Of a DNA stretch of 64,000 nt, positions 31,969 through 50,364 are shown in pieces. A program made the position numbers and the translations under genes. The stretch is taken from positions 460,063 through 524,062 of the forward strand of contig CAVZMI010000023.1 of the NCBI GenBank assembly GCA_963776275.1. Direction: 5' to 3'. The notes under the pieces were generated by a model that had not been told where the DNA came from, made no database searches, and worked only from the letters and a program-made list of their open reading frames with translations. Within the stretch, counting starts at the first letter, position 1. The number at the start of each line of letters is the position of its first letter. This DNA comes from Ignavibacteriota bacterium. Its GTDB lineage: Bacteria; Bacteroidota; Ignavibacteria; UBA10030; CAVZMI01.

Positions 31969-32023
31969 TGAAATCCCTCCCCGTGATTTGACAGAACGAT
32001 TAATAAAATCTTCAACGCTTAGC

Positions 32024-32476
32024 TTATTTATTTCGATATACATACGCAAGATGAATCAAGTTGATCCCTCCTTGCGGTTTTCCGATTGTACACCGAACTA
32101 GATAGTGATCATTCGGTAGATTTTCAAATTCGGCATGGATCATATACGGACAATCACAATTGCAGAGATCTTGTGCGGAATCAATTACTGCTACAACGAT
32201 CGTATCAATACCTGAGGCAGAAGAAACACTGAACCGGTTTGAATCCGGACAGCAGTTAGCGGTCACCGAGAAATCAATGATCAGCTTATCATTAAAAGTA
32301 TACGTGAATATTGAATCTGAAATACCTGTCTTTGAAAGAACCCCTTTCATACATTTGCTGGACTGAAATGAAAATGAGCCGGGATTCTGAGTTTCAGGAT
32401 TAGCCGATTTTTCCTTGCATGAGAAGCAAAGAAAGGTAATCAATCCGATGGTTGTCACTAACACCGGTTTAATCAT
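32024..32476 (-). CDS. Cys-rich lipoprotein, paralog 1
   Basis: Same motifs (NCCPDSNRF, LCNCDC) and same length as its neighbour. Confidence 0.75.
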   Translation of the reverse strand: MIKPVLVTTIGLITFLCFSCKEKSANPETQNPGSFSFQSSKCMKGVLSKTGISDSIFTYTFNDKLIIDFSVTANCCPDSNRFSVSSASGIDTIVVAVIDSAQDLCNCDCPYMIHAEFENLPNDHYLVRCTIGKPQGGINLIHLAYVYRNK

Positions 32477-32607
32477 GGGAGTCTTCCCCCTTTTAATTCC
32501 GAAGATATTGCAATCTATGTAAAAACTTATCGGTTGAGAAGAAATTCGCGCTGCTGCTCTGGTTGTGCTGTCTATTCAGTCAGCAGACTCTACTCGGATT
32601 GTAAATG

Positions 32608-32766
32608 TTACTGTTTTCTAAATCCACGTGAAAGTCCGCCTAGTAAAACCAATGCAACGGCAAAAATGCATCCGCTGGCTATTGGAGTGATAGTTCCAGT
32701 AACCAACAATATCGCGAGTATAATGCAAATCACCAGAAAGAGAAAACCTGCTGTTTTCCGAGACAT
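32608..32766 (-). CDS. 52-aa two-TM small membrane protein (not in ORF track)
   Basis: MSRKTAGFLFLVICIILAILLVTGTITPIASGCIFAVALVLLGGLSRGFRKQ*, with basic residues flanking the hydrophobic helices. Confidence 0.6.
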   Translation of the reverse strand: MSRKTAGFLFLVICIILAILLVTGTITPIASGCIFAVALVLLGGLSRGFRKQ

Positions 32767-32965
32767 GGAATAATTCTTCTTATGTTACAATCTCCAAGCA
32801 CAATATGAGTTTGTTCTCATGATTTACGGATTTTGCACTCTTCCGGTTTCAAATACTTATAGACTAAAACACAATCCCCGCGATAATTAGAAAAGATAAC
32901 AATAGGCTCCAGCGACTCATTGATTATTTCATATCATTACTTCAATCGAGATTCCTTAGGTTTTA

Positions 32966-34616
32966 TCATCTCAGCACACTTAACGGTAGATTTCTATCAA
33001 ATGTCGTTTTACTGATCTGAGGATTTTGTTTTCCTCCTGTAAGAGTTGAAACCGACGTACGAAGGTAATCAACGATCTCACCAAGTGTGACGATGCCGTC
33101 GTTGTTCGCGTCGGCCGGGATAGCTTTCATTACACGTCCCTCGGTATCTGTGATCTTCCCGCCGAGTCCGGCAACCAGGAAATATGTGAATAATCCGTGC
33201 TCCCAGTAGACCCATCCTTCGCGCGAGATTTCTCCTTCGGAGCTTGAGGTGATTGAGAGGAGTCCGGGTTTCGACCGGCCAAGCTCCTGCAGATACCGGT
33301 TGATGAGATTTTTATCGGTATCTAGCGATCGCCGCCCGATAAAAAAAACATTCACGTTGCCGCTGAAACATGCATCTGAAAAAACAATCACACGCTCGGC
33401 AGGAATTATTTTCGTCACGGCATTTTGAATTTCTTTCATCGCCACAGCGGTTTTTTCGAGATCGCGAAGCCTGGTGTCGCTCATCAGGAAATACGATTGA
33501 TCACGGCTGAGCGACGATCCGTGTCCCGAGAAGAAGATCATTACCAAATCCTCTCGTTTCGTTTTTGCCAGGAACGAGAAGAGCGCTTCCGTAAAATTTT
33601 TTCGCGTCGCCTGCTCGTTGAGAAGGACTAGAATATGGTCGTCGTTAAAGGCGCCGCCGTTCGGGCTTTTAAGAAAATCGGCAAAAGCCTGCGCATCACG
33701 GTGGGCGTAGCGCAATTGCGGGATAGTCGTATCACTATACGCACTGACACCGACGATAACTGCCCAGCGAGAACCGACGGAATATTTCATCCGTTGGATC
33801 GTCAGCTTCCGGGTCGATGAATTCCTCATCCGGTCGGCTGCAGTTACTATTATAGTATCCAGACCTTCATGTAATGGAACACGCTGCACAGTCGTCAAAA
33901 ACGTTCGGACCGAATCTATACGAATCGGTGTATCATTGAGAGATAATAATGCCACTCCGCTCGAATCACGAGACCGCTATTTCTACAGAACAGACAGAAT
34001 CGGTTGTCACAATATAATCGGTACCGCGGTTTGTTTTAAGTGCTATCTCGGGTCCCGAAGTATCGACTCCTGCAACAATATTTTTGGGGAGCGTACGCAT
34101 ACGGAGATGTTCCTCGGCAAATTCTCCAAATATACTCATGGCGCGCAACCGTTTGAGGAACACCGATGCCGAATCATCGACGACCATGGCCCCGTCGTTC
34201 CTTTTTCGGACGCGGATCTCGGTAAATTTTTCGGTGCTGGCAAAAAGAATCAGCTCTTCTTCACCAAAGGGAGACCGCACTTCGAACAGCGTGGGCAGCT
34301 GATATGTCCGGTCTTCCTGAATATAGTCGCTTGTATCCCGCATATTTGGAACCAGCTGTAAAGTATATCCAGCCGCATCCTGATACAATACCCGGACATA
34401 GCACGGCTTTGTCGCCCGGACATACACCCGGAAACGATCTCCTTCGGTATACCGAACCATCTGAGAATCGGTCGTCATTGTTGAGAGAAGCGGATTCCTG
34501 TCGGTCGATAGGTGGACACTAAGCGCCTGTCCGAATGCAGCCGAACTTAAGAGCAGAAACATCAGCACTCTGGAGAGGATCACTGAGAAAAATAGATTAT
34601 TCGATTGCGATTTCAT
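32966..34616 (-). CDS. Exported DUF4384 + Ig-like + caspase (peptidase C14) protein, apparent +1 frameshift at ~33971
   Basis: Signal peptide, DUF4384 (Y.EGD...PFGEE...FAS), caspase WAVIVGVS.Y, FSGHG, SDACFSG, HGLFTY. One-base removal joins the ORFs 33966-34757 and 32966-33955. Confidence 0.82.
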
Positions 34617-36525
34617 ATACCGGGATCTCCTCATCAAGTCCTTTGACCTTGATTTTTTTACACTGAACCATCCGTACATGAGGGGAAGTTTCTCGGTAGG
34701 TTTCTTCCGATAGTAAAATTCCTTCTGGGGGTGCATACATCTCGAGCCGTTGGGCAAGGTTCACATTTGCACCGAGTACCGTGTAATCCATTCTGCGTTC
34801 TGTTCCCATATTACCGACAATGACCTCGCCGGTATGGATACCGATTCGAATTTTCAAGGATAGTCGGCCCTCGGGTTCCCATTGTTCTTTCAACGCCCGG
34901 CATTGCCGCTGCATTTCACGTGCCGCATGAACAGCATTAAGCGCATGATTCTCTACTCTTACCGGATCACCGAAAAAAACCATCAGACCATCGCCGATGT
35001 ATTTATCGATTGTCCCTTCATGCTGAAAAACAATTCCAGCCATTGCATCAAAATATTCATTGAGCGTACGTTTTATTTCTTCCGGTGAACGACTCGAACA
35101 ATAGGGAGTAAATCCGACGATATCGCTGAAAAGAATCGTGAGCCTGCGTTTTTCTCCGAGCGACAGTAGATCGGGCTGATCGACGATTTTCCGGACGACA
35201 GCCGGACTAAAATAACGCTCCAGTGTTTGCCGTAGGAATTGTCTCTCTCTTTGCTCGCTGAGAGTCCTGAGAATCACAAGACCTCCACACACCATCACCA
35301 GGCTGAGAAGACCCGGAAGAGTAAGAAAAAGCACACGATAAAAAAGAAACGCATAGACGCACGTAGCGACATGCAAAAGGACACAAATTCCGAAAAGGCC
35401 GAGTAGCACCAACGGACGAACACGGGAAGAAAACAGGGTGAGAAGCGCCACAAGAAGAACCGCCAGACCGATACTCATCCAGAAAGGTGCTGGGCGAAGA
35501 AAATTTTCGGTGAGTATTGAATTGACCACCATACTGTGAATTCCGACCAGAGGAAATTTATTTTCAAGCGGCGTCGGTCCGATATCGGAACTTCCGGTAG
35601 CAGTCTCGCCCACGAAGACAAGGGCGCCGGCAAATTCGCCTTCAATATCAGCGCGCGTTTCGGGATTTGTGGCATTATCGATGATGTTCGTAAACGAGTA
35701 ATGAGCTAGATCCTTCCAGTGTCCCGGAAAATTCAGTAATATTCTTCCCCGGTCATCGATCGGGACAACAATGTTTTTGCTATTTCCACCGGTAAAAGAT
35801 GCTCCGTGAAGGATGATCGAAGAACCGAAATTAACGGTGATGCTATCGGGCGGGACCTGCAGATAGTCGCACACAATCCTGAACGCCAGACTCGGATAAT
35901 ACGCTCCGTTGAAACTCATCAGCAGCGGCATGCGGCGGTACACTCCGTCAGGGTCGGCCTCTGCATTAATGAAACCGATGCCTTTACTTGCGCTGAGCAG
36001 CGCCGGCATACTGGCAACCACCGGTGTCGAGCCGATCAGCGGATTTCCTTTCCGTGCGACACGGATCGACCATTTTGTGCTGTCAACGATTTGAACACGC
36101 CGGTTTTCCCCCCTTTGAACGACCGACGGATTATCCGAAGGTGTAAATGCAATTGCATTGAACATCATGCCGGCCGAACGGGCTGAGGCAATAAACGTCG
36201 AATCATCATGCGCAAAACCGGGTCGTGCAAAAATGATGTCGAATGCCACGCTTTGCGCACCGGCGCGTTTGAGAAACGAGAGAAGATCGGCGTAGAAAGC
36301 ACGGCTCCAGACGTACCGATCCACACGCGCCATCGACGCATCGTCGATATTGACATGGGCGATATTTTCATCGATCGGTTCGGGGCCGGACCAGGCATAC
36401 CGGAGCTGAAACAGCAGATCGCTTGTGCGATCTTCCCAGCCTCCGACCGTCGCGGGGAAAAGGAACAATGCACCATGAACGAGAATCAGTACCATTAGAG
36501 CCAGAATAAGCGACGAGATTCTCAA
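34597..36525 (-). CDS. CHASE2-domain class III adenylate cyclase
   Basis: N-terminal TM, CHASE2 (FDIIF, DPDGVYRR.PL), 3 TM, cyclase FSDIVGFT, DKYIGDG, DYTVLG..VNLAQRLE. TTG start chosen at 36525. Confidence 0.9.
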   Translation of the reverse strand: MRISSLILALMVLILVHGALFLFPATVGGWEDRTSDLLFQLRYAWSGPEPIDENIAHVNIDDASMARVDRYVWSRAFYADLLSFLKRAGAQSVAFDIIFARPGFAHDDSTFIASARSAGMMFNAIAFTPSDNPSVVQRGENRRVQIVDSTKWSIRVARKGNPLIGSTPVVASMPALLSASKGIGFINAEADPDGVYRRMPLLMSFNGAYYPSLAFRIVCDYLQVPPDSITVNFGSSIILHGASFTGGNSKNIVVPIDDRGRILLNFPGHWKDLAHYSFTNIIDNATNPETRADIEGEFAGALVFVGETATGSSDIGPTPLENKFPLVGIHSMVVNSILTENFLRPAPFWMSIGLAVLLVALLTLFSSRVRPLVLLGLFGICVLLHVATCVYAFLFYRVLFLTLPGLLSLVMVCGGLVILRTLSEQRERQFLRQTLERYFSPAVVRKIVDQPDLLSLGEKRRLTILFSDIVGFTPYCSSRSPEEIKRTLNEYFDAMAGIVFQHEGTIDKYIGDGLMVFFGDPVRVENHALNAVHAAREMQRQCRALKEQWEPEGRLSLKIRIGIHTGEVIVGNMGTERRMDYTVLGANVNLAQRLEMYAPPEGILLSEETYRETSPHVRMVQCKKIKVKGLDEEIPVYEIAIE

Positions 36526-36532
36526 CCTGGCC

Positions 36533-37210
36533 TTACCGATGCTCGATCGTGATCGTCCTGATGTAGAGTCCTGTGGCTTCAACTTCTGTCGCGAATTGGG
36601 ATAGATCAACGCGGTCAACTTCTTTTTCATCGCCGATACCACGGACATTTCCGGCAATGGCAATCGGCTTTTCAGCCATTGAAGTGAATTTCCGATACTG
36701 TTTCCGATATGAATTGATTTGTTGAATTACCTCTTGTGTCACCTTCTTTGCTGTTTGTTCATCCTGTTTCTTCAAGCTGACAAGCAGTTTCTCGAGTGCT
36801 GACAACCGTTCACCCGAGGCAATTATATAAAATGTTTCTCGCCCGGTATTCGAATCGAGTGAATACCAGAGTCGTCCGCGCGGCATGGTATAGGAAACAT
36901 CGGTGGAGACCGATGTCCCGATTTCTTGCGACGAGTATGGGAAGAGAAGCGTCATTCCCCCGCGCGAATCCTGAAACATCACATAGATATAGCAGCGTGA
37001 GAGCGGTTGGATCAGCATTTTAAACGAATCTCCGGTGTATAGTACCGTATCACGTTGGATATTGATAATCGCTTTCTTGCCGTCCACCGACATTTTCCCC
37101 ACTAGCGCCCACCGGAAGGAAATCTGGCGAGGCGTTTCCTGTGCAATAAGCAGAGAGATGCAGAATATTGCGAAGAGCGCTAATAACATGAATCTTTTTG
37201 ATATGATCAT
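36533..37210 (-). CDS. Exported DUF4384-domain protein
   Basis: Signal peptide, GDSFK...YIYV..QDS.G...LLFP, W..LD..TG.E.FYIIAS. Confidence 0.8.
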   Translation of the reverse strand: MIISKRFMLLALFAIFCISLLIAQETPRQISFRWALVGKMSVDGKKAIINIQRDTVLYTGDSFKMLIQPLSRCYIYVMFQDSRGGMTLLFPYSSQEIGTSVSTDVSYTMPRGRLWYSLDSNTGRETFYIIASGERLSALEKLLVSLKKQDEQTAKKVTQEVIQQINSYRKQYRKFTSMAEKPIAIAGNVRGIGDEKEVDRVDLSQFATEVEATGLYIRTITIEHR

Positions 37211-37314
37211 TGTCACCTCTTCATTTATTTCAATATTTTTAAAATCAAACCACCGACCACACGAAGAATTCGAAAACGGTTTTGGAGTACCTGAACATAC
37301 GTAATAATAGTCGT

Positions 37315-39864
37315 TTATGGCACTAAAGTCATTGGCAGATTTCGGTCATACGCACCGCTGGCGAATGGATGCTGCTGCGCCTTCGTCGCACGTCGTACAT
37401 TCTCGTTCACATAATCGAGCAGTTCGCCAAGACGTACGATATGATCTTTGTCGTAGTCTGCTTCACCTTTCAAACCCTGCAGAAGGTAATATGTAAAGAC
37501 GCCGTGTCCTCCGCCCCATTGGTTTCCTTCCTGAGATTTTTCTTTTGCTTCAGCAGCACTGAAGGTGCAGATGCTCGGATCTGTACGTGAAAGATCTGCA
37601 AGGAATTCATTAATGAGTTCGGAGGTTGCCAATCCCCGCGATGCTATATCGCCGCCGATCCCGGCGCTGTGACATGCATCGGCAAAAACAATCACTTTAT
37701 TTGATTTGACGTAATATTTTATCGCATCCTGGATTTCCTGCATCCTGACAGCGGTCGCTCCCGGCCTCGATATATCCGAATCATACGCGAGCAAATACGG
37801 GACATTGGGCCGTGTGGGATCCGGCACGCCGTGTCCGGCAAAATAAATAATCACAACGTCATCTTCGATGGGGTTTTTTAAAAAATCGGTGATCGCCCCG
37901 CGTATATTGACCGTCGTGGCTTCCTTATTTGTCAGTTTCAGCACATTATTTTTTGAAATCCCACCTCCGCCTTTCTCACGGGATGAGACAAGAAGCTCAT
38001 AGAAATCTTCGGCATCACGATGTGCATAACGTAACGTTGGGATATTTGTGTCACGATAATCGGATACACCGATAACAACGGCCCAGTACTGACCCCGGAA
38101 CACTTTTTCGTTCGGTCTCTTTTCCTCGACAATATAATTTACTTCTCGTTTTACATCGAGCGTTGTCCGCGCGATATTCCGGTACTTATCGATCGCTTCG
38201 ATTTCAATGTGATTCGTTCCGAGTGTAAGCAGTGCCTCACTGCTGAACTGCACTCCCCCTTCAATCGGTGAAAGATTTGCTTCGATGTTATTGACTCTCA
38301 CGACTGCAACACCGTTTGCATCTTTGGCAACACCCTTAATCGCTATCGATGATTCCTTTATCGAAATAACTGTGTCGTTCTTCGCTATGCCAATTCCGCG
38401 CTGGGCAATCACCTGAGGTTCAAGCAGAACGATCGTCGGCGGAATAATATCTTTCGCGGGATGAAGATCGCCAGCTGCTGCACCCGGGACGACTCCTATT
38501 CCAGGCTGAATTCCAGCCCCCTCGGTTTTCTGTTCGGTCTTTTGGGCGAGACCCCCTTTTCTCACAGTTATGAATTGATCTGTCACGCCTCCGATTTGAT
38601 CGCAGACTTCGATAAAATGAGTTTTCAGTGTGTTGTCAATCCGTATGGTCGATCTGAACTTGACCCCTCCACTTTTCATGCCGTACTGTCGGGATTCAGC
38701 ATCTGTGAGTGGAACGAGGGGAAGTTCATTATTATCGAATATCACATCGGCAATTCCAAGATCGCCTGACGTAATGCCGGTAAGGGTCAGCGAATCAGAG
38801 AGTGTTTCAAAGTCGACCGATGCAGAAGCAGCGACTTTTTCCGGAAGTGCAGGTTCGATGATTCGAATAGCCGCCAAAATAGGCTGCCGATTTTGTCCGA
38901 GTCCTTCAACATTCCATACCTTCACGGTTTTATCGGCTGAACCTGTAACAAATTTTTTCCCGTCTTTACTCACGGCAAGCGATGTCACAGGCGCGGTATG
39001 CGCCATCGGGAGTGTTATTGTCGATTTTTTAAATAGATCGATAACAGCGATTTTCCCATCCTTCGTAGGCAAGAGAACATATTTTCCATCGGGTGTGATT
39101 TCCAAAAAATGATTTCCGGAAGAACGGCCTTTATATTGAGAAAGAATCTGTTGTGTAACAAGATCCCAATGAAGAATGGTGTTATTTCCATCGGCAGATA
39201 CGAGCTGGAGACCGTCGGATGAAAAAGCGCACGCCGCAATATAGGAATTATGTCCGCGGAGTGTACCAACCTGCATATTCCGATTCAGATGAATCAATGC
39301 AATCGAATGATCATCCAGTCCGCACGCGATAAAATGTCCATTGGGTGAAAACTCGATTGTCGTTACATTCCCCGCCAATGACACAACACCGATTTCTTTT
39401 TGGGTAGTTGCGCGATAAAAACGGATAGTCTTATCGTTCAAAGCCACCCCAAAGACGCGCGCATCGGGCGAGAGTGCAAGTGCGGTTACCCGTGACGGCA
39501 TCGAATACATCCTGTCGTACCGGGTCGATGATGTCGCCGATAATGTTGTATAGACAACCGAACTGCTTTTTCCTGTATTCGTACTCATAAGAACTACTCG
39601 TTCATTGGCATTCGAAACGGCTAGAGAATATTTCACATCGGTCAGAGTCTGGACGACACTGTCACGGAGCAGATCCCATACTTTCAATGTTGCATCCCAA
39701 TCGCGCGTGATTAACGTCGTACCGTTAGAACTCAATGAAAGAAACTCGATACCGGCATTTTGCTGCCCGAGTGTCTCTAGAAGGGTGATTACCGGCTGTG
39801 CTTCAATGGTAGCTGCCATCACCACTAATAACACAGCAACCAACAGCCATCGTGAATGTTTCAT
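37315..39864 (-). CDS. Exported WD40-repeat + Ig-like + caspase (peptidase C14) protein
   Basis: Signal peptide, about 7 WD40 repeats (GH...FS.DG..L.S.D..I..WD), caspase YFAGHG, FADACHS, GHGVFTY. Confidence 0.9.
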   Translation of the reverse strand: MKHSRWLLVAVLLVVMAATIEAQPVITLLETLGQQNAGIEFLSLSSNGTTLITRDWDATLKVWDLLRDSVVQTLTDVKYSLAVSNANERVVLMSTNTGKSSSVVYTTLSATSSTRYDRMYSMPSRVTALALSPDARVFGVALNDKTIRFYRATTQKEIGVVSLAGNVTTIEFSPNGHFIACGLDDHSIALIHLNRNMQVGTLRGHNSYIAACAFSSDGLQLVSADGNNTILHWDLVTQQILSQYKGRSSGNHFLEITPDGKYVLLPTKDGKIAVIDLFKKSTITLPMAHTAPVTSLAVSKDGKKFVTGSADKTVKVWNVEGLGQNRQPILAAIRIIEPALPEKVAASASVDFETLSDSLTLTGITSGDLGIADVIFDNNELPLVPLTDAESRQYGMKSGGVKFRSTIRIDNTLKTHFIEVCDQIGGVTDQFITVRKGGLAQKTEQKTEGAGIQPGIGVVPGAAAGDLHPAKDIIPPTIVLLEPQVIAQRGIGIAKNDTVISIKESSIAIKGVAKDANGVAVVRVNNIEANLSPIEGGVQFSSEALLTLGTNHIEIEAIDKYRNIARTTLDVKREVNYIVEEKRPNEKVFRGQYWAVVIGVSDYRDTNIPTLRYAHRDAEDFYELLVSSREKGGGGISKNNVLKLTNKEATTVNIRGAITDFLKNPIEDDVVIIYFAGHGVPDPTRPNVPYLLAYDSDISRPGATAVRMQEIQDAIKYYVKSNKVIVFADACHSAGIGGDIASRGLATSELINEFLADLSRTDPSICTFSAAEAKEKSQEGNQWGGGHGVFTYYLLQGLKGEADYDKDHIVRLGELLDYVNENVRRATKAQQHPFASGAYDRNLPMTLVP

Positions 39865-39874
39865 TTTCGTATTC

Positions 39875-42800
39875 CTATCGTACAAGAGCCATTTTCTTTG
39901 TGATACTCATACCGTTCACATTAAGGCTATAGAAATAAACTCCCGAAGCCAGACCCGACGCATTCACCATCACATCATAATATCCTGCAGGCTGATCGCT
40001 ATCGACAAGCTTTATTGCTTCCTGGCCGACAATAGTATAGAGAATTAGGGTGACGTGTCCCGGTTCGGGAATCTGGTACCTGATCAACGTCGATGGATTA
40101 AACGGATTCGGATAATTTTGAGCCAGTGCATACTTGGCCGGAATAGTACTCGCACCACCTGTCATTTGAGTGACATAATAGCGTTCGCCGACAATAAGTT
40201 CAAGCAAGCGAGTCCCGTCAGCCGAATATATGTCACGGAATGATTGCTGCCGCATATCGTACAGGGCATCTCGCGCCCGATCGAATAAAAATACTCCATA
40301 ACGGCTGGGTATATGTTGTAGATTTTTTAATTCAAGCCGAACCATCGTGTGCGGCGCATCCCGCAATTCCAGATCCCATGTCAATCCATTCTCAATCGAC
40401 GGCCTTATATCGGCTGCGAGACGATCAGAGATATCCGGGCTTTTCGGATTCGGGAAAAAGAGCGAGACGGTATTCGGCATCGCAGGTGGTTCATATACAA
40501 CATAGGCATTATTCTTTTCAGAGACTTTTGTATTCACGCCAAAGTATGTGATCTTATCGAATGATACATCGTCCGATGCGATAATTTGTCCTACCCATTC
40601 ATTATCATCCCGGCCTCCGGAATCCAGTGCATTTTCCGCGTTTTGAAAATATCTATAAACAGAATTCGGTTCATCACTGCACGTGGTTGAGAGCTTTTGT
40701 AGAACTGCATCGGGATTTTTCAATTTGAGAAGGCATGTATCGGTGACATGGATCGCCAGTCCTTCCCACGGTCTGAATCCCGCCGATGTTCCAAAATCCC
40801 AACCGCTTTGCGAGCCTGATCCGGAGTAGTAGAAGGAAGACGTCGTAAGATTATTGACTGCTGGTAAGAGTTCCAAATCCGACAGTGCCAGTTGATAAGG
40901 GAAAAGATCGCCGACAATATTCCATCCGGGTTCGAGCCTGGCACCGGGTACACGAAGATAGCCCAACGATAAGGCACCGCCCAGGGTATTCCGAAGTTTT
41001 ATGCTCTTCGATGTAATGAGCATGTATGCATGACCGATCTGGAGATCAAAATCATTTGTTGTACTCCACTCATCATATACGGCCGTTTTAATGAAGCGGA
41101 ACAATCTCCATTCCGATCCGTTTGTTCCTAATGAATTTTGACCGGAGAAAAAGTGCGATACCTTTTGATCGCCGAGTCCGACTGGTACTGAAAAAAGCCG
41201 ATAATCTGTTTGGTTCGTCCCGCTGTGCGTGGAAGACGAAAACTTGTCAGCCGCAACGGTAATCACAATCGGATTGAATTGATCTTCTGCGACTCCATTC
41301 CACACACTCGTATTCCCGCTTAGATCGGAGGCAACGATGCGGTAATCTATCCCGTCGGTTGTTACCGCGGCATCCGGTATTGTCGCCGACGGAGGCGTCA
41401 TTCCCCGATTGAATGCAGTCCGCTGCCAAGCACCCTTTCCTGTCCGGTAATCAACATAAAAATCCTGTACTCCGCCTGGATCGGAAACATCTGCGACGAT
41501 AGTAATAGCATTTCCGGGTAGCTTGACAACGGGCACACTCACGTTCGATATCACCGGCGGGGTATTATCGACAACAGCAGTTCCTCGGATAATTGTTTGA
41601 GCTACAGGTTTCGTCAGATCATTACTATAGAGCAGTAACATTCCATATCTCAAACCATCCGATTTCGGTGACCAGCGAAGTGTCACCTGCTGATTGCCGC
41701 CACCGGTTATAGAAATAGGGTAGACAACACTTACGAGTTTAAATTCTGATGCGCTGCCAGTCGACATTTGCACCCGGATTGAATCGACCCGGAGATCAAC
41801 CGATCCGGTATTTTGAATTGAGAAATTCTGGTCAGCATCCAGACCTGCAATGACGGTGCCAAATGAAATAGTATCTTGTACGGCAATTTTGGTCCTTGTA
41901 CCCCAGTTCCATGAATGAACACCTGAGCCGATGGTCTTGACAGATCATTAGAATAGAGTATCAGTACGCCGTTTAATACCCCTCCTGATTTCGGCGACCA
42001 GCGGAGCGTCACCTGTCGACTAACACCACTTGTAATAATGAAAGGATATACTACGCTAACGAGTTGTAAATCCGAAATATTGCCGGCGGATAGCTGCACC
42101 TTCATCGAATCGATGTGAAGATCGCTCGATCCTATATTCTGAATCGTGAGATTCTGGTCAGCATCCAGACCTGTAATGACGGTGCCAAACGAAATAGTAT
42201 CCTGAACGGCAATTTTGGGTCCTTGAACCGCAGTCCCGCGAACAACCACTTGAGCTATCGATTTTGTTGGATCATTATTATACAGTATCAACATTCCATT
42301 TCTCAGACCCGCTGATTTCGGTGTCCAACGAAGTGTTATCTTTTCATTGACACCATTTTTAATAATAAGTGGATAGACTACATTCAGAAGCTGGAATTCC
42401 GATACATCGCCTGTGGTCATCTGCAGCCGTATCGAATCAACATGGAGATCACTCGATCCTATATTCTGAATCGTAAGATTCAGATCGGAATATAGACCAA
42501 CCATGACAGTCCCCAATGGAAGTGTATCCTGAACGGCAATTTTTGGTCACTTGGAGTCCGATCCCTTGAAGTGGAACAGATGCTATTTCGAGTGTCGGAT
42601 CATTACTATAGAGTAAGAGATTTGCATCACGGACACCCCCCGTGGTTGGTGCGAAATGGAGTGTTAATGTTGTAGTCTCGTCTTGTTGTAATAAAATGCT
42701 TATAGCTGCATTTGAAATTGAGAAATCGTTTGGATTTGCACCACCGATCCGTATTGAATCGATCTGTAGCGCTTCCCCTCCTACATTTTGTATCGTAATA

Positions 42801-44710
42801 GATTGATTGTCAGATGCACCGACGTTAACGCTTTTGAATTGGACTCTTATCGGTGGAGAAATCACCGGGAACGTAGGGATCCCCCGCCAGACACCACTGC
42901 CGTCGGTTCCGGCAAAAATCATCCCATTAGATGTAAAGCCGAACGACCAAATAAACACACTTGTTAAATCCTGATTTGTCCGATACCAGCTAAGTCCATT
43001 ATCATCGGAAATATAAACCCCGTCATTCGAAGTTCCACAGAAAATGAACCCTCGAGGCCCCATTTCAAATATGTTGATATCAGGTCCGCTCAATACCTGT
43101 ACCCATGAATCGCCATTATCCGTAGATCGAAAGATGCCGATATTAGTTCCAACCAGAAGTACGTTTGTTGTCTTTGTCAAAGGAAAAGATGACAGATTCC
43201 AAAGAATTTTCGTCGTGATGCCTGTCCCAACTTGTGTCCAGGTATTACCGTCGTTGGTTGACCTATAGATACTAAAAGCGCTATCAATTAAAAAAAGTGC
43301 GCCTGATTGAGTTACTGTGAACGAATAGATATACCCTGTTGCAAGTGTAGATGATATTGATGTCCATGTTTTTCCGGTATCGGAACTTCGATAAACCCCG
43401 CCCGTACTTTGTGCATACATTATACCTACTGTATTCATCGTGATAATACATACTGTATGATCGTCTGAAGGAATGCCATTGTTACTCGCAGTCCATGTAT
43501 CACCATTATCGGTTGAGAAATATACACCTCTTCCTGTTCCTGCAAATAGTGAACCATTAGGATGCACCATGATGGAATAAATCGTAGTAGTTCTGATCTC
43601 GTTGCCGACGTGAAGCCAGTTCTTTCCATAATCGGTTGTATGATATAATCCATTGTATGGAGAGCCGGCAAAGAGACCTCCTATCGACTGATGCTTGAGG
43701 GAATAAATAGCGGTACCGGTTAATCCATAATTCTGCTCTGTCCAGCTTGCCCCGTTATTTGTCGAACGATAAATCCCAATCCCGAGGAAGCCTGCATATA
43801 CTGCGCCTGTTTTATCGAGGACGAAAGAACGAGTATTTGGTGCAGGAACACTTGCACTCATGGGAGTCCAATTCCCTCCACCATCAGTTGATGCTAATAC
43901 TCCGTTCAAATCTGTTCCTGCATAGATCGTTCCGTCAATCGGATTGCGACAAAGTGCGACTACCTTCAGACCGTCCATTATCAATCCACTCAGTATACAT
44001 GTATTACCATCATCAACGGATAGATACATACCATCGGAGGCACCGACATAGATAATATTGAGCGTTGGATGAACGATAATCGAATAGCAGATTTTCCCGG
44101 CGATGAGATTCCCTGACGGGTACCACGTTTCACCATAATCAGAAGAGCGGAACATACCACTGCTTGTCCCGGCAACGATTGCTCCCGAGTGGGATTGTGC
44201 GAGTGAAAGAACATTGAGATCCGTTAAACCCAGGTTGACCGAAATCCAAGATGTGCCATAATCGACTGACCGATATATGCCATCTGAAGTCCCGGCGAAA
44301 AGAACTCCACCCGGGATGACGAGGATCGCTTGTACGCTCACATCCGCGATATCGGTTGTTGATATTAGACTCCAGCTTGTTCCCTGGTCATACGAGCGAT
44401 ATATTCCCGAGTAATTTGTGCCGGCATAAAGTATTCCCGTAGTATTATCCACGGCAAGTGACCTGACATACGTATTTTCTATCCCGATATTTACCGGTTG
44501 CCAAGTTGTCGCCTGATCAAGAGAGTGAAAAACTCCATTTCCGTATGTGCCTGCATAGACGATTCCAAGATAATCATCAACTGCAAGCGCACGAACCGTG
44601 CCGCCGTACGGACCATTTGTCTTTTCCCATCGGATTTGTGAAAAAACAGACGGTGAAAGAAAAACTAATAAACCAAGTATAAGAATAAACCGTGGCCCTG
44701 CGTGTCTCAT
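39875..44710 (-). CDS. Large (~1600 aa) secreted protein: BNR/Asp-box beta-propellers, four Ig-like (ASH/choice-of-anchor D) domains, T9SS CTD, with apparent frameshifts at ~42548 and ~41890
   Basis: More than 12 S.D.G.TW repeats, I.N.G...L repeats, AQNYPNPFNP..KKMALVR. The frames rejoin at the repeated QGPKIAVQD linker. Confidence 0.82.
41560..42550 (-). repeat. Intragenic triplication, period 327 bp
   Basis: CCTGAACGGCAATTTT-type anchors at 42528, 42201 and 41875, with near-identical flanks. Confidence 0.8.
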
Positions 44711-44799
44711 TGCACTAACCTTATAATATCATTGCGATTAAAACATCGGATTTATTTCCTGACTTTACGGATCGTGGACTGTATGCAAAATATCCTCCA

Positions 44800-45489
44800 T
44801 CATGGCAAATTTGGTGGTTCAGGAAGCTTCGTCGGTCCTTCTGTTCCTCCACCCCCCTTACTTCCACTAATGAGAACCGCCGCCAGCACTCCACCACCGA
44901 CGACAACACCGCCGATAATCCAGTAGATTGTTGAATTTGATTCTGCCTCCTTTTTTACTTCTGGTTTTTGCGGAGGCTGTTCCTGCTTTTCTTTTGTCGT
45001 CAGGGGCGTTAGAGGCTTCATTCCTTCAGCCGTCTTTGCCAGAAGATCGGCAAGAATACCTTTATATTGCGAATAGAGCGTTACACTCCCTTCTAGGTAG
45101 TCCATTGTTTGTTCGTAAATCACGCGTGACTGGGTAACATTTACGAGACTGACTTTCAGCGTGTAGCCGGTTTCGACTTGTGTCACAACTCCGAATACTA
45201 CTGCATCGAGTCCGATCTGTTTCCCAACCAAGGCGGCAGTATTTGCATCCTCGACGACCGGGAAAGATCCTTCTGCCAATTCGTCAATCAATGCCGCCCG
45301 ATCCTTGATCACCAGTTTCCCATCGACAGCAAGTGTAGCAGCAAAAAGATCGGAAAAACGATCGGCGATAAGCTGCGACGTGTTGACAGGTTTAAACGGA
45401 CAAACGCCAATGGTAACATCGACGAGTTGTTGACCATATATAAGAGATGTAAAGAAAAAAAATACAAAAGAAGCGCGAAGAATTTTCAT
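44800..45489 (-). CDS. Exported CsgG/TolB-N-like protein with a C-terminal Gly-rich hydrophobic tail
   Basis: Signal peptide, DR..L..EL, A..VGK.IG.DAVVFG.V, LVNV motifs, YWIIGGVVVGGGVLAAVL tail, GAGGAG RBS. Confidence 0.7.
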   Translation of the reverse strand: MKILRASFVFFFFTSLIYGQQLVDVTIGVCPFKPVNTSQLIADRFSDLFAATLAVDGKLVIKDRAALIDELAEGSFPVVEDANTAALVGKQIGLDAVVFGVVTQVETGYTLKVSLVNVTQSRVIYEQTMDYLEGSVTLYSQYKGILADLLAKTAEGMKPLTPLTTKEKQEQPPQKPEVKKEAESNSTIYWIIGGVVVGGGVLAAVLISGSKGGGGTEGPTKLPEPPNLP

Positions 45490-45729
45490 GCGTACACTCC
45501 TCGGCATAATAGTACGGGAAGACCGCTCATTGTTAATGTTATGAGAATCTGGAAGAAAATCAAGCCTCTTCATATGCCTATGCGTAATTGTTTTTTCCTG
45601 ACCCATTCCGTATCTTGGAAAAACCTTATATGCTCCGAAACCTGCGGGTTGACCGATATTCAGGTTCCGTTGCACGTACCGGAAACGTAGGATGACAGAC
45701 AGGTACCTTGAATATATGGAGACAATATT

Positions 45730-46902
45730 TTGTTCGAAAAACCATCATATCCGCGTTTAATCTTTGTCGACTATTTGCGATTTGCAGCAGTGTTATTCAT
45801 GCTGCAGGGACACACGTTCGATGCCCTTCTTCAACCAACAACAAAGGTAATTTATTCATATAAAATTTTTAATCTGTTCCACGGACTTACAGCGCCCATG
45901 TTTCTGTTCAGTGCCGGATTTGCATTTGCAGTCTCTTCAATCCGGCACATCGATCAGTATATTCAATATTCCCCGAAACTAGAAAAACGTTTTCTTCGAT
46001 ACATTGCGCTGCTGGGTATCGGATACTTACTTCACCTTCCGTATTTCTCACTTCAAAAACTTTTTTATGAGACTGCGTCGTGGGAATTTGAACAGCTCTG
46101 GAATGTCGATACGCTTCAGTGTATCGGAGTAAGCCTTATTCTTCTGCAGACGCTTGTATTCGTTCTTAAAGACGAAAAGAAGTATCTTGTCGTGACGAGC
46201 TTCTTGGCCGGATTCGCGATTCTTCTTGCGCCGCTCATGTGGAACCTGCCTCGGGTGAATTGGCTTCATCCCGCACTCGTTTCATATATCAATGGTGAAT
46301 ACGGGAGCTTTTTCCCGATGTTCCCCTGGTTTGGATTCATCGCATTCGGTTCGGTTGTCGGACAACTCTTTTTACTTGCTACCAAAGCTAAACAGCCGGA
46401 ACGCTTTGTTCTCTTAATGATGATCGTCGGGGCGAGTATGATCCTGGCTGGACTTATCCTGGTACATTTACACATTCCTTTCTATCCAATACACGATTGG
46501 TACAAGACAAATCCTCTCTATAGTATGATCCGACTGGGTATGATTATGTTGTTCTGCGGAATGCTCTGGTATGGTGAACAACACAGCCGTAAGTATTTGC
46601 ATGAGACGACAAAAAAGAAGATACGCCCGCTACAAATGCTAGGTCGCGAATCGTTAATGATTTACGTTGCCCATCTTATTGTTCTATACGGCTCACCGCT
46701 CAATCATGGTGCCGGATATTATTTAGGCACGACGCTGAATCTCTGGCAAAGCACGTTTGTATTCGGAATCCTCTTTTTTACAATGCTTCTTCTGGCAATT
46801 GCCTGGCATACATTAAAGAAGCGCTATTCTATGCACATACGGTTTGTTTTGTTTGCGACAACAGTATCGTTGATAATGCTCTTTGTCACGAGAGAATATT
46901 AA
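45730..46902 (+). CDS. Membrane acyltransferase (DUF1624/HGSNAT-like)
   Basis: RL.FVDYLR..AVLFMLQGH, APMFLF.AG, DTLQCIG, FP.FPW, LGRESL.IY..H. Confidence 0.82.
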   Translation: MFEKPSYPRLIFVDYLRFAAVLFMLQGHTFDALLQPTTKVIYSYKIFNLFHGLTAPMFLFSAGFAFAVSSIRHIDQYIQYSPKLEKRFLRYIALLGIGYLLHLPYFSLQKLFYETASWEFEQLWNVDTLQCIGVSLILLQTLVFVLKDEKKYLVVTSFLAGFAILLAPLMWNLPRVNWLHPALVSYINGEYGSFFPMFPWFGFIAFGSVVGQLFLLATKAKQPERFVLLMMIVGASMILAGLILVHLHIPFYPIHDWYKTNPLYSMIRLGMIMLFCGMLWYGEQHSRKYLHETTKKKIRPLQMLGRESLMIYVAHLIVLYGSPLNHGAGYYLGTTLNLWQSTFVFGILFFTMLLLAIAWHTLKKRYSMHIRFVLFATTVSLIMLFVTREY

Positions 46903-49803: not shown

Positions 49804-49833
49804 GTATAAAAGAATCTCTGTTTTTGCCTGATA

Positions 49834-50364
49834 TCAGTCATCTCTTTTCTTATTGAGAACATATACAACATCTTTTGCTGGTATAAGATGGTCACGGAGA
49901 AATATCTGGGTTACCGCGTCAAGATCTCCCTCCTTATCGGAGAAGAGGAACACGACAAGGTCGGCAAGGTGCAGTTCTTTAAGCAACATTGCTTCGTCGC
50001 GAGTATCTTCAATAGAATCTATTCCCGGTGTGTCGACGATTGAAATTCCATTCCACTCTTTCTTTGAAACACGATCGGTTTTCCGGACAGCTCCGGTCGG
50101 GAAAAATTCATCCTGCTCGATGACCGCGTTGGCCGTGGAACTTTTTCCTGCCTTACTGACCCCGGCGAATAAAACGCTTAATGTGTTTTCCTTAACTCCC
50201 GCATACGTTTTTTCGACCAATCGAAAATCGTCGATAAGATTCGGAGGGATAACTTCTGCATAAGTGGCCACCGCATCCCATACTGAGGTTTTCAGTGCAT
50301 TAATACTACCGAATGCAATACCAATGCTACTTAGAATATGTTTTACTTCCGCCTCGAAGTTCAC
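49834..50364 (-). CDS. N-terminal part (G1-G4) of a dynamin-like GTPase
   Basis: GVSKAGKS, RKT, DTPG, VLNK, ending just after G4. GTG start with GGAG. Confidence 0.78.
   Translation of the reverse strand: MNFEAEVKHILSSIGIAFGSINALKTSVWDAVATYAEVIPPNLIDDFRLVEKTYAGVKENTLSVLFAGVSKAGKSSTANAVIEQDEFFPTGAVRKTDRVSKKEWNGISIVDTPGIDSIEDTRDEAMLLKELHLADLVVFLFSDKEGDLDAVTQIFLRDHLIPAKDVVYVLNKKRDD

What the first reader, a model, noticed from the sequence alone, without database searches (positions are those of the whole stretch)
32966..45489. Putative extracytoplasmic caspase-to-cAMP signalling system (six-gene operon)
Seen: contiguous co-oriented genes with gaps under 110 bp: CsgG-like protein, giant T9SS beta-propeller, WD40-caspase, DUF4384, CHASE2-adenylate cyclase and DUF4384-caspase. 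Both caspases keep the His-Gly and Asp-Ala-Cys dyad, and both have signal peptides, as do the DUF4384 and CsgG-like proteins. The cyclase keeps its metal-binding Asp pair, Lys/Asp ATP specificity and N..R. Known: characterised bacterial caspase-like systems act mostly in the cytoplasm, and CHASE2 is an extracytoplasmic sensor of unknown ligand. Inference: a surface sensor triggers a two-step periplasmic protease cascade whose product is read by CHASE2, producing cAMP. I know of no characterised pathway like this.
Basis: partly seen in the sequence, partly recalled or inferred. Interest (0 to 1): 0.78.

Follow-up and report, generated by a model that had tools for sequence, protein, structure and literature searches.

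The report
Secreted caspase, DUF4384, CHASE2 cyclase module
A gene trio kept together in several bacterial phyla encodes an exported caspase-family protease, a small exported protein of unknown function and a membrane sensor that makes cAMP, which suggests an untested way of turning a protease event outside the cell into a signal inside it.

Summary
Two split the giant T9SS protein and one splits the DUF4384-caspase. A 96%-identical relative is intact. Another gene in the window is also split, so assembly error is likely.

I surveyed 79 CHASE2-cyclase loci. Eight have a DUF4384 protein gene directly upstream of the cyclase. Seven of those eight also encode a caspase-fold protease (C14 or CHAT). 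None of the other 71 does. These cyclases form one clade (97% SH-aLRT support). All the proteases and DUF4384 proteins start with signal-peptide-like segments. The catalytic residues are kept.

The conserved unit is therefore three genes, not six. The CsgG-like gene, the T9SS giant and the second caspase are not part of the core found across phyla.

My best reading is that the protease acts on or with the DUF4384 protein, and that CHASE2 reads the result and sets cAMP. This is inferred, not shown. A similar cluster was noted in passing in Psychroflexus torquis (PMC3914696), but no such cluster has been characterised.

The parts
44800..45489 (-). CsgG/LpoB-like exported protein (229 aa) with an N-terminal signal-like segment and a C-terminal TM helix (residues 191-209). 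It is not part of the conserved core.
   Evidence: ORF and hydropathy. No Pfam or NCBIfam match at E <= 0.01; weak TolB_N/LptE matches at E 0.01-0.03. Atlas look-alikes score 0.97 with 209 of 256 shared features, in clusters that are 100% PF03783 CsgG. Homologues in L059 match CsgG/LpoB.
39875..44710 (-). Giant exported protein (about 1610 codons if read through): BNR/Sortilin-type beta-propeller, four tandem Ig-like (ASH / choice-of-anchor D) repeats, an unassigned region and a T9SS type A sorting domain. Two compensating frameshifts, near 42548 and 41890, break it into 3 ORFs. It is not part of the conserved core.
   Evidence: Pfam. NCBIfam: F510_1955 family 197.8 bits (cut-off 175), choice-of-anchor D 64.7 (cut-off 45), TIGR04183 33.3 (cut-off 23). 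Junction DNA. tblastn with one repeat places repeats 1 and 4 in frame 1 and repeats 2 and 3 in frame 2.
37315..39864 (-). Exported WD40 beta-propeller / Ig-like / caspase (C14, metacaspase-like) protease, 849 aa. Catalytic His678 (37831-37833) and Cys731 (37672-37674); Asp617 in the RD motif.
   Evidence: Pfam WD40 and Peptidase_C14. Aligns to metacaspase-4 6w8s. Invariant GHG and DAC. Residue coordinates. Signal-like N-terminus. Orthologues sit at the same position in L001 and L002.
36533..37210 (-). Exported DUF4384 partner protein, 225 aa: signal-like segment, beta-sandwich, long helix, then the conserved loop motif AE[KR]P.x[IL].G.x.R[GS] (P182-G191, 36638-36667; Arg190 at 36641-36643), then a C-terminal beta-hairpin.
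   Evidence: Pfam DUF4384 41.3 bits. Alignment A2 of 22 partners shows invariant G187 and R190. The Arg is kept in 142 of 151 family representatives. AF2 model pLDDT 82.7, with the motif in the lowest-confidence stretch (blocks 171-200 score 63, 52 and 60). A homologue lies directly upstream of the cyclase in 8 of 79 loci.
34597..36630 (-). CHASE2 class III adenylate cyclase: TM1, periplasmic CHASE2, three TM helices, cytoplasmic cyclase. The start is uncertain (ATG 36630, TTG 36525 or ATG 36495). In the numbering from TTG 36525: metal Asp468 and Asp512, Lys508, Asp580, Asn589, Arg593.
   Evidence: Pfam CHASE2 168.6 and Guanylate_cyc 102.5 bits. TM scan. Aligns to CyaB 3r5g and Cya2 2w01/6fht. 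Invariant columns in A1. Residue coordinates and start candidates.
32966..34616 (-). Exported DUF4384 / Ig-like / caspase fusion, broken by one extra base near 33968 into ORFs 33966-34616 and 32966-33955. In the second ORF: His145 (33521-33523) and Cys196 (33368-33370).
   Evidence: Pfam DUF4384 60.1 and Peptidase_C14 66.0 bits. Junction. Intact relatives P0080-P0085 (531-555 aa, 77-96% identity). The alignment places the break at ...VEIAV|RDSSG.... Residue coordinates.

Best explanation
**The conserved unit**
The working unit is three genes. All the sensing parts lie outside the cytoplasm.
1. A Sec-exported caspase-fold protease that carries a variable binding domain. Here that domain is a WD40 propeller. 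In relatives it is an FGE-sulfatase/C-type-lectin-like domain, LamG, or TPR with a CHAT protease.
2. A small exported DUF4384 protein, encoded immediately upstream of the cyclase.
3. A CHASE2 receptor fused to a class III adenylate cyclase.

**Proposed mechanism (inferred)**
- The DUF4384 protein is the periplasmic partner or pro-ligand of this CHASE2 subfamily. FecR-domain proteins hold the same place at other CHASE2 cyclases.
- When its binding domain engages a target, the protease processes the DUF4384 protein.
- One candidate cleavage site is the family-wide invariant Arg in a flexible loop.
- CHASE2 reads the change and switches cAMP synthesis.

**What is shown and what is inferred**
- Shown: the linkage, the export signals, intact active sites, and co-inheritance of the cyclase with its partner type.
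- Inferred: physical contact, cleavage, the cleavage site, and the direction and sign of the signal.

**The remaining genes of the window**
- The CsgG-like gene and the T9SS giant look like local additions, probably co-transcribed here.
- The DUF4384-caspase fusion is an accessory found in this lineage only.
For: **Linkage**
- Among 79 CHASE2-cyclase loci, a DUF4384 partner gene lies directly upstream of the cyclase in 8: L001-L004, L008, L017, L031 and L039.
- Pfam confirms 5 of these above the cut-off and 2 below it. L039 is found by profile only.
- A C14 caspase is present in L001-L004 and L008, and a CHAT protease in L031 and L039. That is 7 of 8, and the eighth (L017) is cut by the contig end 610 nt upstream.
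- None of the other 71 loci has either protease. Fisher p = 2.8e-9. This is not corrected for shared ancestry.

**Co-inheritance**
- In a tree of 72 cyclases, the 9 DUF4384-linked ones plus L020 form one clade (97% SH-aLRT).
- That clade splits into a C14 subclade (99%) and a CHAT subclade (100%).
- It spans MAGs labelled Ignavibacteriota, Thermodesulfobacteriota, Deltaproteobacteria and Spirochaetota.

**The linkage survives rearrangement**
- The protease gene lies upstream on the same strand (L001-L004), convergent downstream (L008), or 1-5 kb downstream (L031, L039).
- Its accessory domain is swapped between loci.

**Location**
- Every protease and DUF4384 protein in these loci begins with a signal-like hydrophobic segment.

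**Activity**
- GHG and DAC are invariant in 9 of 9 caspase domains. The cyclase catalytic set is intact.
- The Asp of 'RD' and the Asp of 'DAC' align with metacaspase positions. I recall these as the acidic S1 pocket, which would fit cleavage after Arg or Lys.
- Orthocaspases cleave after basic residues (PMC6426788, abstract start in the search listing).

**The DUF4384 partner**
- The family has 270 representatives at E <= 1e-30, and almost all of the best 150 are 200-275 aa with a full-length match.
- The loop Arg is kept in 142 of 151. It sits in the least confident part of a good model.

**Context from papers (passages read)**
- Removing CHASE2 from S. meliloti CyaD1 gives constitutive cAMP (PMC5498481, figure legend).
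- The S. meliloti CHASE2 cyclases respond to a signal of protein nature, uL2, through NsrA (PMC13001267).
- CHASE2 sensors with an exported FecR partner are known from Burkholderia (PMC5192318). They occur in 27 of my 79 loci.
Against: - No experiment or structure shows contact or cleavage.
- The loop motif is equally conserved in the CHAT subclade, where the protease type differs. Its constraint may therefore come from the constant partner, CHASE2, as a docking element rather than a cleavage site.
- The association traces to one clade. It counts as roughly one evolutionary origin, not eight independent events.
- L020 lies inside the clade but has an acyl-CoA dehydrogenase gene, not DUF4384, upstream.
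- L017 has no protease in the 10 kb held downstream.
- DUF4384 is also fused to caspases, including in this window. The domain may therefore serve the protease as an escort or inhibitor rather than serve the receptor.
- A catalytic Cys in an oxidising periplasm needs protection.
- Signal peptides were judged without a trained predictor.
- In this window the second caspase and the giant are frameshifted. If those breaks are real, part of the local system is decaying.
Confidence: 0.42

Rival explanations
1. The signal runs the other way, or in parallel. CHASE2 senses something unrelated and cAMP controls expression of the neighbouring genes. The exported caspases are output effectors, for example for surface remodelling, feeding or attack on neighbours. 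The DUF4384 protein is their escort, inhibitor or immunity factor rather than a receptor ligand.
For: DUF4384 is fused directly to caspases in about 25 clusters related to the window's own fusion. A paper notes it as often fused to proteases (bioRxiv 10.1101/2022.08.17.504292, passage). The proteases carry binding domains (WD40, LamG, FGE-sulfatase-like) that could select substrates. Exported clan CD proteases that act as effectors exist, such as gingipains (recalled, not checked here).
Against: The stand-alone DUF4384 gene always abuts the cyclase gene (gap or overlap of a few bases up to about 100 nt), not the protease gene. It stays there when the protease gene moves or changes type. The cyclase phylogeny tracks the partner type. 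No cAMP receptor protein gene was found among the window ORFs scanned.
Confidence: 0.22
2. This is a six-gene operon in which the T9SS surface propeller senses a cue, the WD40-caspase then activates the DUF4384-caspase in a two-step cascade, and the product is read by CHASE2.
For: All six genes are co-oriented with gaps of at most 104 nt. Both caspases keep their dyads. Close relatives appear to keep the DUF4384-caspase on the same contigs as the cyclase. Matching contig lengths are 80045, 14554 and 10850 for the cyclase and fusion hits, and 306040 for the DUF4384 and fusion hits.
Against: L001 and L002 have the orthologous WD40-caspase, DUF4384 and cyclase, but no CsgG-like gene, giant or second caspase. 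No DUF4384-caspase fusion occurs in any of the 79 loci. In L059 the CsgG-like and T9SS giant pair occurs with a cyclase that lacks both caspase and DUF4384. T9SS cargo genes are common near these loci. In the window the giant and the second caspase are frameshifted.
Confidence: 0.1
3. This is a conflict or programmed-death system of the kind catalogued for caspase, WD40, TPR and FGE-sulfatase proteins. The caspase would be a death or anti-invader effector and the cyclase a nucleotide signal generator, as in Pycsar.
For: PADLOC models for 'caspase' and PycC match (E 3e-15 and 9e-32). NCBIfam's nearest caspase model is the EACC1-associated type. Caspase-CHASE2 fusions are listed among conflict systems (PMC8195603, passage).
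Against: The NCBIfam scores (87.9 and 97.5 bits) fall below the cut-off of 140. The PycC matches cover only the generic class III cyclase domain, and the specificity residues are Lys/Asp as in adenylate cyclase CyaB. No STAND/AP NTPase, EAD adaptor, Pycsar effector or mobile-element gene is present nearby. All the protease parts are exported, whereas those systems act in the cytoplasm.
Confidence: 0.1
4. The neighbours are not functionally linked, and the clustering reflects shared ancestry of one genomic segment.
For: All the DUF4384-linked loci fall in one cyclase clade, so the statistical association could be a single inherited arrangement.
Against: The clade spans four phylum-level labels. 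Gene order, strand and protease type all change between members, yet the trio persists. The genes flanking the trio differ in every locus.
Confidence: 0.08

Closest known systems
CHASE2 adenylate/guanylate cyclases CyaD1, CyaD2 and CyaK of Sinorhizobium meliloti, with the outer-membrane protein NsrA
   Same: The receptor architecture is the same: TM, CHASE2, TM helices, class III cyclase. The signal is 'of protein nature' (plant uL2) and needs an accessory envelope protein (PMC13001267, passages). Removing CHASE2 gives constitutive cAMP (PMC5498481, figure legend).
   Different: The accessory protein there is a beta-barrel, NsrA. No protease or DUF4384 protein is reported. The window's cyclase belongs to a separate clade defined by its DUF4384 partner.
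Exported FecR-domain (LysM-FecR) protein plus CHASE2 sensor operons, such as the Burkholderia 'BiofilmReg' operon, and the FecR-type CHASE2-cyclase loci found here
   Same: A small exported protein is encoded beside a CHASE2 sensor (PMC5192318, passages). FecR-like ORFs occur in 27 of my 79 loci and lie directly upstream in 5.
   Different: The partner here is DUF4384, not FecR. None of the 27 FecR-type loci has a caspase or CHAT gene. The Burkholderia output is a histidine kinase.
Caspase-CHASE2 fusion proteins (Trichodesmium erythraeum metacaspase; EACC2-caspase-CHASE2)
   Same: A caspase domain and CHASE2 are functionally coupled (PMC3501461 and PMC8195603, passages).
   Different: In the fusions the caspase is predicted to be cytoplasmic and is the output of CHASE2. 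Here the caspase is a separate, exported protein on the same side of the membrane as CHASE2, and the output is a cyclase.
Psychroflexus torquis genomic island 15 cluster
   Same: It is described as holding four WD40-repeat metacaspases, several flagged with signal peptides, together with a CHASE2 protein (PMC3914696, text passage and Fig. 9 legend). This is the closest thing in print to the present cluster.
   Different: That paper only annotated the cluster and loosely linked it to programmed cell death or algal interaction. It mentions no DUF4384 partner and no cyclase. I could not inspect that genome.
Type III-E CRISPR 'Craspase': Csx29 (a caspase-like CHAT protease) cleaving Csx30
   Same: A caspase-fold protease cleaves a dedicated signalling substrate, and one group of Csx30 C-terminal domains is DUF4384 (bioRxiv 10.1101/2022.08.17.504292, passage).
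   Different: Craspase is cytoplasmic and RNA-guided, and its output is a sigma factor.
Extracellular protease-to-receptor signalling, such as Spätzle processing for Toll and protease-activated receptors (recalled analogy, not checked here)
   Same: The logic of the best explanation matches: a recognition module activates an extracellular protease, the protease converts a pro-ligand, and a membrane receptor reads it.
   Different: There is no homology. Those systems are eukaryotic and use serine proteases. The resemblance is in how the system would work, not in family membership.

Membership tests
Peptidase C14 (caspase/metacaspase/orthocaspase), both window copies | Pfam PF00656 match above the gathering score | tested here: met
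   60.3 and 66.0 bits against a cut-off of 21.4.
Peptidase C14 (caspase/metacaspase/orthocaspase), both window copies | Catalytic His-Cys dyad in the p20 region | tested here: met
   G-H-G and D-A-C are invariant in 9 of 9 aligned domains. They align to the His and Cys of AtMC4 6w8s.
Peptidase C14 (caspase/metacaspase/orthocaspase), both window copies | Basic (Arg/Lys) P1 specificity, as in metacaspases and orthocaspases | tested here: inconclusive
   Asp in 'RD' and Asp in 'DAC' are conserved and align to metacaspase positions. Their role as the S1 pocket is recalled from metacaspase structures. No activity assay was possible.
Class III adenylate cyclase | Two metal-binding Asp, substrate-specifying Lys and Asp, transition-state Asn and Arg | tested here: met
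   Asp468, Asp512, Lys508, Asp580, Asn589 and Arg593. These columns are invariant in A1. The motifs are identical to adenylate cyclase CyaB 3r5g, and Lys stands where guanylate-type Cya2 2w01 has Glu.
CHASE2 receptor | PF05226 match flanked by one N-terminal and several C-terminal TM helices, so that the domain faces outward | tested here: met
   168.6 bits. TM segments at 40-58 and then 383-454 of the 677-aa form.
DUF4384 (PF14326) | Pfam match above the gathering score | tested here: met
   41.3 bits (stand-alone) and 60.1 bits (fusion) against a cut-off of 27. Profile-profile comparison of the two types gives 96% probability over 85 columns.
T9SS cargo (giant protein) | C-terminal type A sorting domain | tested here: met
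   TIGR04183 33.3 bits against a cut-off of 23. Pfam PF18962 scores only 23.3 against 27. The C-terminal 90-100 residues match T9SS tails of proteins in L023, L030, L039 and L061.
CsgG curli secretion channel | PF03783 match and a full-length CsgG architecture | tested here: not met
   No Pfam or NCBIfam match at E <= 0.01. The protein is 229 aa with a C-terminal TM helix. Only look-alike clusters and L059 homologues carry CsgG/LpoB labels. It is best called CsgG/LpoB-like, not a CsgG channel.
   Only the protease, DUF4384 and cyclase recur. The CsgG-like and giant pair recurs once, in L059, without the trio.
Pycsar / nucleotide-signalling defence | Pyrimidine cyclase with an adjacent effector | tested here: not met
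   PycC models match only the generic cyclase domain. The specificity residues are of the adenylate type. No effector model matched any of the 8 proteins tested.
NTPase-regulated caspase conflict systems (EACC1/EACC2, STAND-caspase) | EACC or EAD module or STAND NTPase in the protein or the neighbourhood, with cytoplasmic location | tested here: not met
   NF047832 scores 87.9 and 97.5 bits against a cut-off of 140. No NTPase lies among the neighbours. The proteases carry export signals.
Protease-processed pro-ligand plus receptor (working model) | The protease cleaves the DUF4384 protein, and CHASE2 binds it or its product | not testable with these tools
   This needs biochemistry or a reporter host. 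See the decisive next steps.

The most novel reading that the evidence does not exclude
A subfamily of CHASE2 receptors has a protein ligand made on demand. An exported, target-sensing caspase-fold protease cuts a dedicated periplasmic pro-ligand, the DUF4384 protein, at its invariant loop Arg. The cut form switches the cyclase. This would be a bacterial counterpart of the Spätzle/Toll logic. It would give the first defined input for a CHASE2 domain, the first signalling role for an extracytoplasmic bacterial caspase homologue, and a function for DUF4384 as a caspase-substrate module, in line with Csx30.
Probability: 0.25. Interest if true: 0.85.

Novelty: new variant of a known kind. Interest (0 to 1): 0.62.

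Why it matters
- **CHASE2.** The domain is widespread, yet its inputs are almost unknown. The only studied cyclases with it respond to a protein signal through an accessory envelope protein (PMC13001267).
- **Bacterial caspase homologues.** They are usually discussed as cytoplasmic death or defence effectors.
- **What this module offers.** It pairs an exported, apparently active caspase-fold protease and a small DUF4384 protein with one CHASE2-cyclase clade, and the pairing is kept across phyla. That gives a concrete hypothesis testable with three components and a simple readout: cAMP in a cya-deficient host.
- **What a test could settle.** It would show how at least one CHASE2 family is switched, what DUF4384 does, and what exported bacterial caspases are for.
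- **For annotation.** A DUF4384 gene directly upstream of a CHASE2 gene predicts a nearby exported caspase or CHAT gene: 7 of 8 here against 0 of 71.

Tried and rejected
- **Complex prediction.** I folded the CHASE2 periplasmic domain (residues 14-340 of P0001, alignment A1) with the mature DUF4384 protein (residues 24-225, alignment A2). The score was 0.02 against a mark of 0.32, which gives no verdict either way.
- **Fold search.** The DUF4384 model searched against the PDB gave 0 matches at E <= 0.001. Only generic beta-sandwiches appeared (RhoGDI, Der p 2, GlgE N-domain), so the fold gave no functional lead.
- **Promoter and terminator scan of 32000-46200.** It found 32 promoter-like sites against 23.8 +/- 5.3 expected, and 9 terminator-like sites against 12.9 expected. 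None was informative for operon limits.
- **Rfam.** There were no matches at gathering thresholds across the whole window.
- **Cluster-member look-up.** The organism therefore remains unnamed. T9SS tails, DUF5683 and the nearest cyclase relatives point to Ignavibacteriota or the FCB group, by inference only.
- **Defence-system reading.** PADLOC gave only generic caspase and cyclase matches.
- **Programmed frameshifting or phase variation in the giant gene.** I considered this because both breaks sit at homologous repeat positions beside a short A-run. I rejected it as unlikely because the runs are only 4-5 bases and another gene in the window is split as well.
- **Literature.**
  - Searches for DUF4384, CHASE2+caspase, CHASE2+FecR, CHASE2+'CHAT domain', CHASE2+metacaspase, DUF928, CHASE2 since 2021, and orthocaspase+periplasm were run.
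  - None of the listings or passages I read described a DUF4384-CHASE2 pairing or a characterised exported caspase-to-cyclase pathway.
  - PMC7475262 holds both words, but it lists them only as separate accessory domains.
- **Not checked.**
  - The bioRxiv supplements (Csx30 groups) were closed.
  - No trained signal-peptide predictor was available.

Full report
**1. What is in the sequence**

The finding covers 32966-45489, and every gene in it reads on the minus strand. In transcription order:

| Gene | Coordinates | Notes |
|---|---|---|
| CsgG/LpoB-like exported protein | 44800-45489 | No Pfam match at E <= 0.01 |
| Giant exported protein | 39875-44710 | BNR/Sortilin propeller, four Ig-like repeats, T9SS sorting tail |
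| WD40-Ig-caspase | 37315-39864 | |
| DUF4384 protein (225 aa) | 36533-37210 | |
| CHASE2 class III cyclase | 34597-36630 | Start uncertain |
| DUF4384-Ig-caspase | 32966-34616 | |

- NCBIfam confirms the T9SS tail (33.3 bits, cut-off 23) and calls the propeller an F510_1955-family protein (197.8 bits, cut-off 175).
- Gaps between the genes are 89, 10, 104 and 7 nt, and the last pair overlaps by 20 nt. A 489-nt gap follows.
- The surrounding window is ordinary chromosome: parAB, lutABC, guaA-like, rtcB/archease and an ECF sigma factor, with no mobile-element genes.

**2.

Two of the six 'genes' are broken.
- *The giant protein.* It is three ORFs. tblastn with one Ig-like repeat puts repeats 1 and 4 in one frame and repeats 2 and 3 in another. 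The frame changes fall exactly at the repeat boundaries. At the DNA level there is one extra base near 42548 and one missing A in an A-run near 41890.
- *The DUF4384-caspase.* It is split by one extra base near 33968.
  - Relatives at 96, 88, 84, 82, 80 and 77% identity are single proteins of 531-555 aa carrying both domains.
  - The window's two ORFs align to them end to end, meeting at ...VEIAV|RDSSG....
- *Cause.* A GDSL lipase gene elsewhere in the window is also split, and two further gene pairs look suspicious. The parent contig is 524 kb. Assembly error is therefore the likelier cause, but real decay is not excluded.

**3. Active sites and location**

- Both caspase domains align to plant and yeast metacaspases (6w8s, 4f6o), with the His of GHG and the Cys of DAC in place. 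These motifs are invariant in 9 of 9 aligned domains from the window and relatives.
- Two Asp residues (in RD and in DAC) occupy positions that I recall as the acidic S1 pocket of metacaspases. That would fit cleavage after Arg or Lys.
- The cyclase domain matches adenylate cyclase CyaB (3r5g, E 1e-37). It shares the IDK..GD and MDYT..G..VN.A.R.E motifs. It has Lys where the guanylate-type Cya2 (2w01) has Glu.
- A hydropathy scan and inspection of the N-termini show signal-like segments on the CsgG-like protein, the giant, both caspases and the DUF4384 protein. The cyclase has the topology TM, CHASE2, then three or four TM helices, then the cyclase domain. No trained predictor was available.

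**4. Do the genes co-occur elsewhere?**

*The survey.* A profile of 26 CHASE2-cyclases (A1) retrieved 79 loci from species-representative genomes. The best were 37-40% identical, so the window's own lineage is not represented. I translated all six frames of every locus (4272 ORFs of 70 aa or more) and searched them with the window proteins and with profiles.

*DUF4384.*
- A DUF4384 partner lies directly upstream of the cyclase in 8 of 79 loci: L001-L004, L008, L017, L031 and L039.
- Pfam confirms five of these above the cut-off and two below it. L039 is found by profile only.

*Proteases.*
- C14 caspases occur in L001 and L002 (WD40-caspase), L003 and L004 (caspase with an FGE-sulfatase-like domain) and L008 (caspase-LamG, convergent downstream).
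- CHAT proteases occur in L031 (with a TPS/ShlB two-partner secretion pair) and L039.
- That is 7 of the 8 loci. The eighth, L017, ends 610 nt upstream of the DUF4384 gene.
- None of the other 71 loci has a caspase or CHAT ORF. Fisher p = 2.8e-9, which overstates independence.
- Every one of these proteases and DUF4384 proteins begins with a signal-like segment.

*Other partner types.* By contrast, 27 of the 79 loci hold a FecR-like ORF, directly upstream of the cyclase in 5. None of those overlaps the DUF4384 set.

**5. Phylogeny**

- I built a quick maximum-likelihood tree of 72 cyclases. Eight short rows were left out: L018, L043, L052, L064, L066, L067, L069 and L078.
- All nine DUF4384-linked cyclases, including the window's, fall with L020 in one clade (SH-aLRT 97).
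- That clade divides into a C14-linked subclade (99) and a CHAT-linked subclade (100).
- L020 has no DUF4384 gene upstream, and its contig ends just after the cyclase.
- The clade mixes MAGs labelled Ignavibacteriota, Thermodesulfobacteriota, Deltaproteobacteria and Spirochaetota. The trio has therefore been kept together while moving between lineages, while the protease gene changed position and strand, and while its accessory domain was swapped.

**6. The DUF4384 partner**

- A profile search of 1.84 billion representatives found 6023 proteins at E <= 1e-3 and 270 at E <= 1e-30. Almost all of the best 150 are 200-275 aa with a full-length match.
- The family signature outside the DUF4384 sandwich is a loop motif, AE[KR]P.x[IL].G.x.R[GS]. 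The Arg is kept in 142 of 151 sequences, with 7 gaps and 2 substitutions.
- In an AF2 model of good overall confidence (pLDDT 82.7), this motif sits in the least confident stretch.
- A conserved motif in a flexible loop suggests either a cleavage site or a docking peptide.
- The motif is equally conserved in the CHAT subclade. That fits docking to the constant partner, CHASE2, at least as well as cleavage.
- The DUF4384 domain of the caspase fusion is homologous only over the sandwich (hhalign 96%, 85 columns).

**7. Which parts belong together**

- *Core:* the protease, the DUF4384 protein and the CHASE2-cyclase.
- *The CsgG-like gene and the giant are not core.*
  - They are missing from L001 and L002, whose trio is orthologous.
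  - They recur once, in L059, divergent from a CHASE2-cyclase that has no DUF4384 and no caspase.
  - T9SS cargo genes are frequent near these loci in general.
  - In the window they are probably co-transcribed with the trio, since only 10 nt separate them from the next gene. That is local.
- *The DUF4384-caspase fusion is not core either.*
  - It is absent from all 79 loci.

**8. How it most likely works**

*Shown:*
- a conserved, co-inherited trio;
- sensing parts that are exported;
- intact active sites.

*Inferred:*
- The DUF4384 protein is the periplasmic partner or pro-ligand of this CHASE2 clade.
- The protease, guided by its binding domain, processes it, possibly after the invariant Arg.
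- CHASE2 converts the change into cAMP synthesis.

*Support from papers (passages read):*
- CHASE2 deletion makes CyaD1 constitutive (PMC5498481).
- The S. meliloti CHASE2 cyclases sense a protein signal through an accessory envelope protein (PMC13001267).
- Exported FecR partners accompany other CHASE2 sensors (PMC5192318).
- A group of Csx30 substrates of the caspase-like Csx29 have a DUF4384 C-terminal domain (bioRxiv 10.1101/2022.08.17.504292).
- FGE-sulfatase/C-type-lectin-like domains on orthocaspases are diversified binding modules (PMC7517822).

*Main rival:* cAMP is upstream and the proteases are effectors, with DUF4384 as their escort or inhibitor.

**9. Comparison with what is known, and novelty**

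- Caspase-CHASE2 fusions are known, but the caspase there is cytoplasmic (PMC3501461, PMC8195603).
- A cluster of signal-peptide-bearing WD40-metacaspases with a CHASE2 protein was drawn for Psychroflexus torquis, without analysis (PMC3914696).
- My literature searches turned up no description of the DUF4384-CHASE2 pairing and no characterised exported caspase-to-cyclase pathway.
- I file the finding as a new variant of a known kind: a CHASE2 sensor with an exported accessory protein. The protease-processed-ligand reading is the bolder possibility.

**10. Limits**

- There was no signal-peptide predictor.
- The association rests on one clade.
- The tree used the quick method.
- The mechanism is untested.

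Noticed in passing
window 23250-23856 (-): A GDSL lipase gene is split into two overlapping ORFs in different frames. Pfam profile positions 1-80 fall in one ORF and 81-178 in the other. This is evidence that frameshifts in this window are not confined to the finding.
   Followed up: partly
window 50511-55122 (-): This is a second class III cyclase in the window. A Ser/Thr kinase-cyclase protein (53059-55122) overlaps a long TPR protein (50511-53153) by 95 nt in another frame. It may be one frameshifted kinase-cyclase-TPR gene.
   Followed up: no
window 46899-50364 (-): There are three dynamin-like GTPase ORFs in a row. The last two (49834-50364 and 48790-49803) are in the same frame and are separated by a TGA and 9 codons.
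   Followed up: no
L010, L023, L024, L028, L029, L030, L038, L040, L050, L053, L061, L073 (2.4-2.9 kb upstream of the cyclase): Bacteroidota and Ignavibacteriota CHASE2-cyclases of another clade share a different upstream set: a roughly 400-aa protein, a FecR-domain protein, and (in most of these loci) a protein of about 810 aa with no Pfam family. Atlas clusters for the 810-aa protein hold 61-307 members, all labelled hypothetical. This is a second, uncharacterised accessory set for CHASE2.
   Followed up: partly
L031 6011-17729; L039 4923-16542: These loci show the CHAT-type version of the module. L031 runs TPS (haemagglutinin-like) protein, DUF4384, CHASE2-cyclase, two small ORFs, TPR-CHAT, ShlB/FhaC transporter. 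L039 runs DUF4384-like protein, cyclase, two exported unknowns, VWA-TPR-OmpA, TPR-CHAT.
   Followed up: partly
L059 384-12118: A redoxin, two CsgG/LpoB-like proteins, a 1469-aa BNR/LamG/Fn3 T9SS protein and a TPR protein lie divergent from a CHASE2-cyclase that lacks DUF4384 and caspase. The CsgG-like and giant pair is homologous to the window's.
   Followed up: partly
window 41573-42856 (-): Both frameshifts in the giant gene fall at the same position of consecutive Ig-like repeats, next to a CCAAAA(A)TTGCC tract. This could reflect polishing errors in near-identical repeats.
   Followed up: partly
window 30270-31451 (-) and 32024-32476 (-): Two further exported proteins lie just downstream of the finding. 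One is an esterase/peptidase S9-like protein with a T9SS tail. The other is a 150-aa protein with a lipoprotein-like N-terminus and no family match.
   Followed up: no
window 58898-60747 (-): An RtcB RNA ligase and archease gene pair lies next to an AddA-like UvrD/PD-(D/E)XK helicase-nuclease gene (55224-58886).
   Followed up: no
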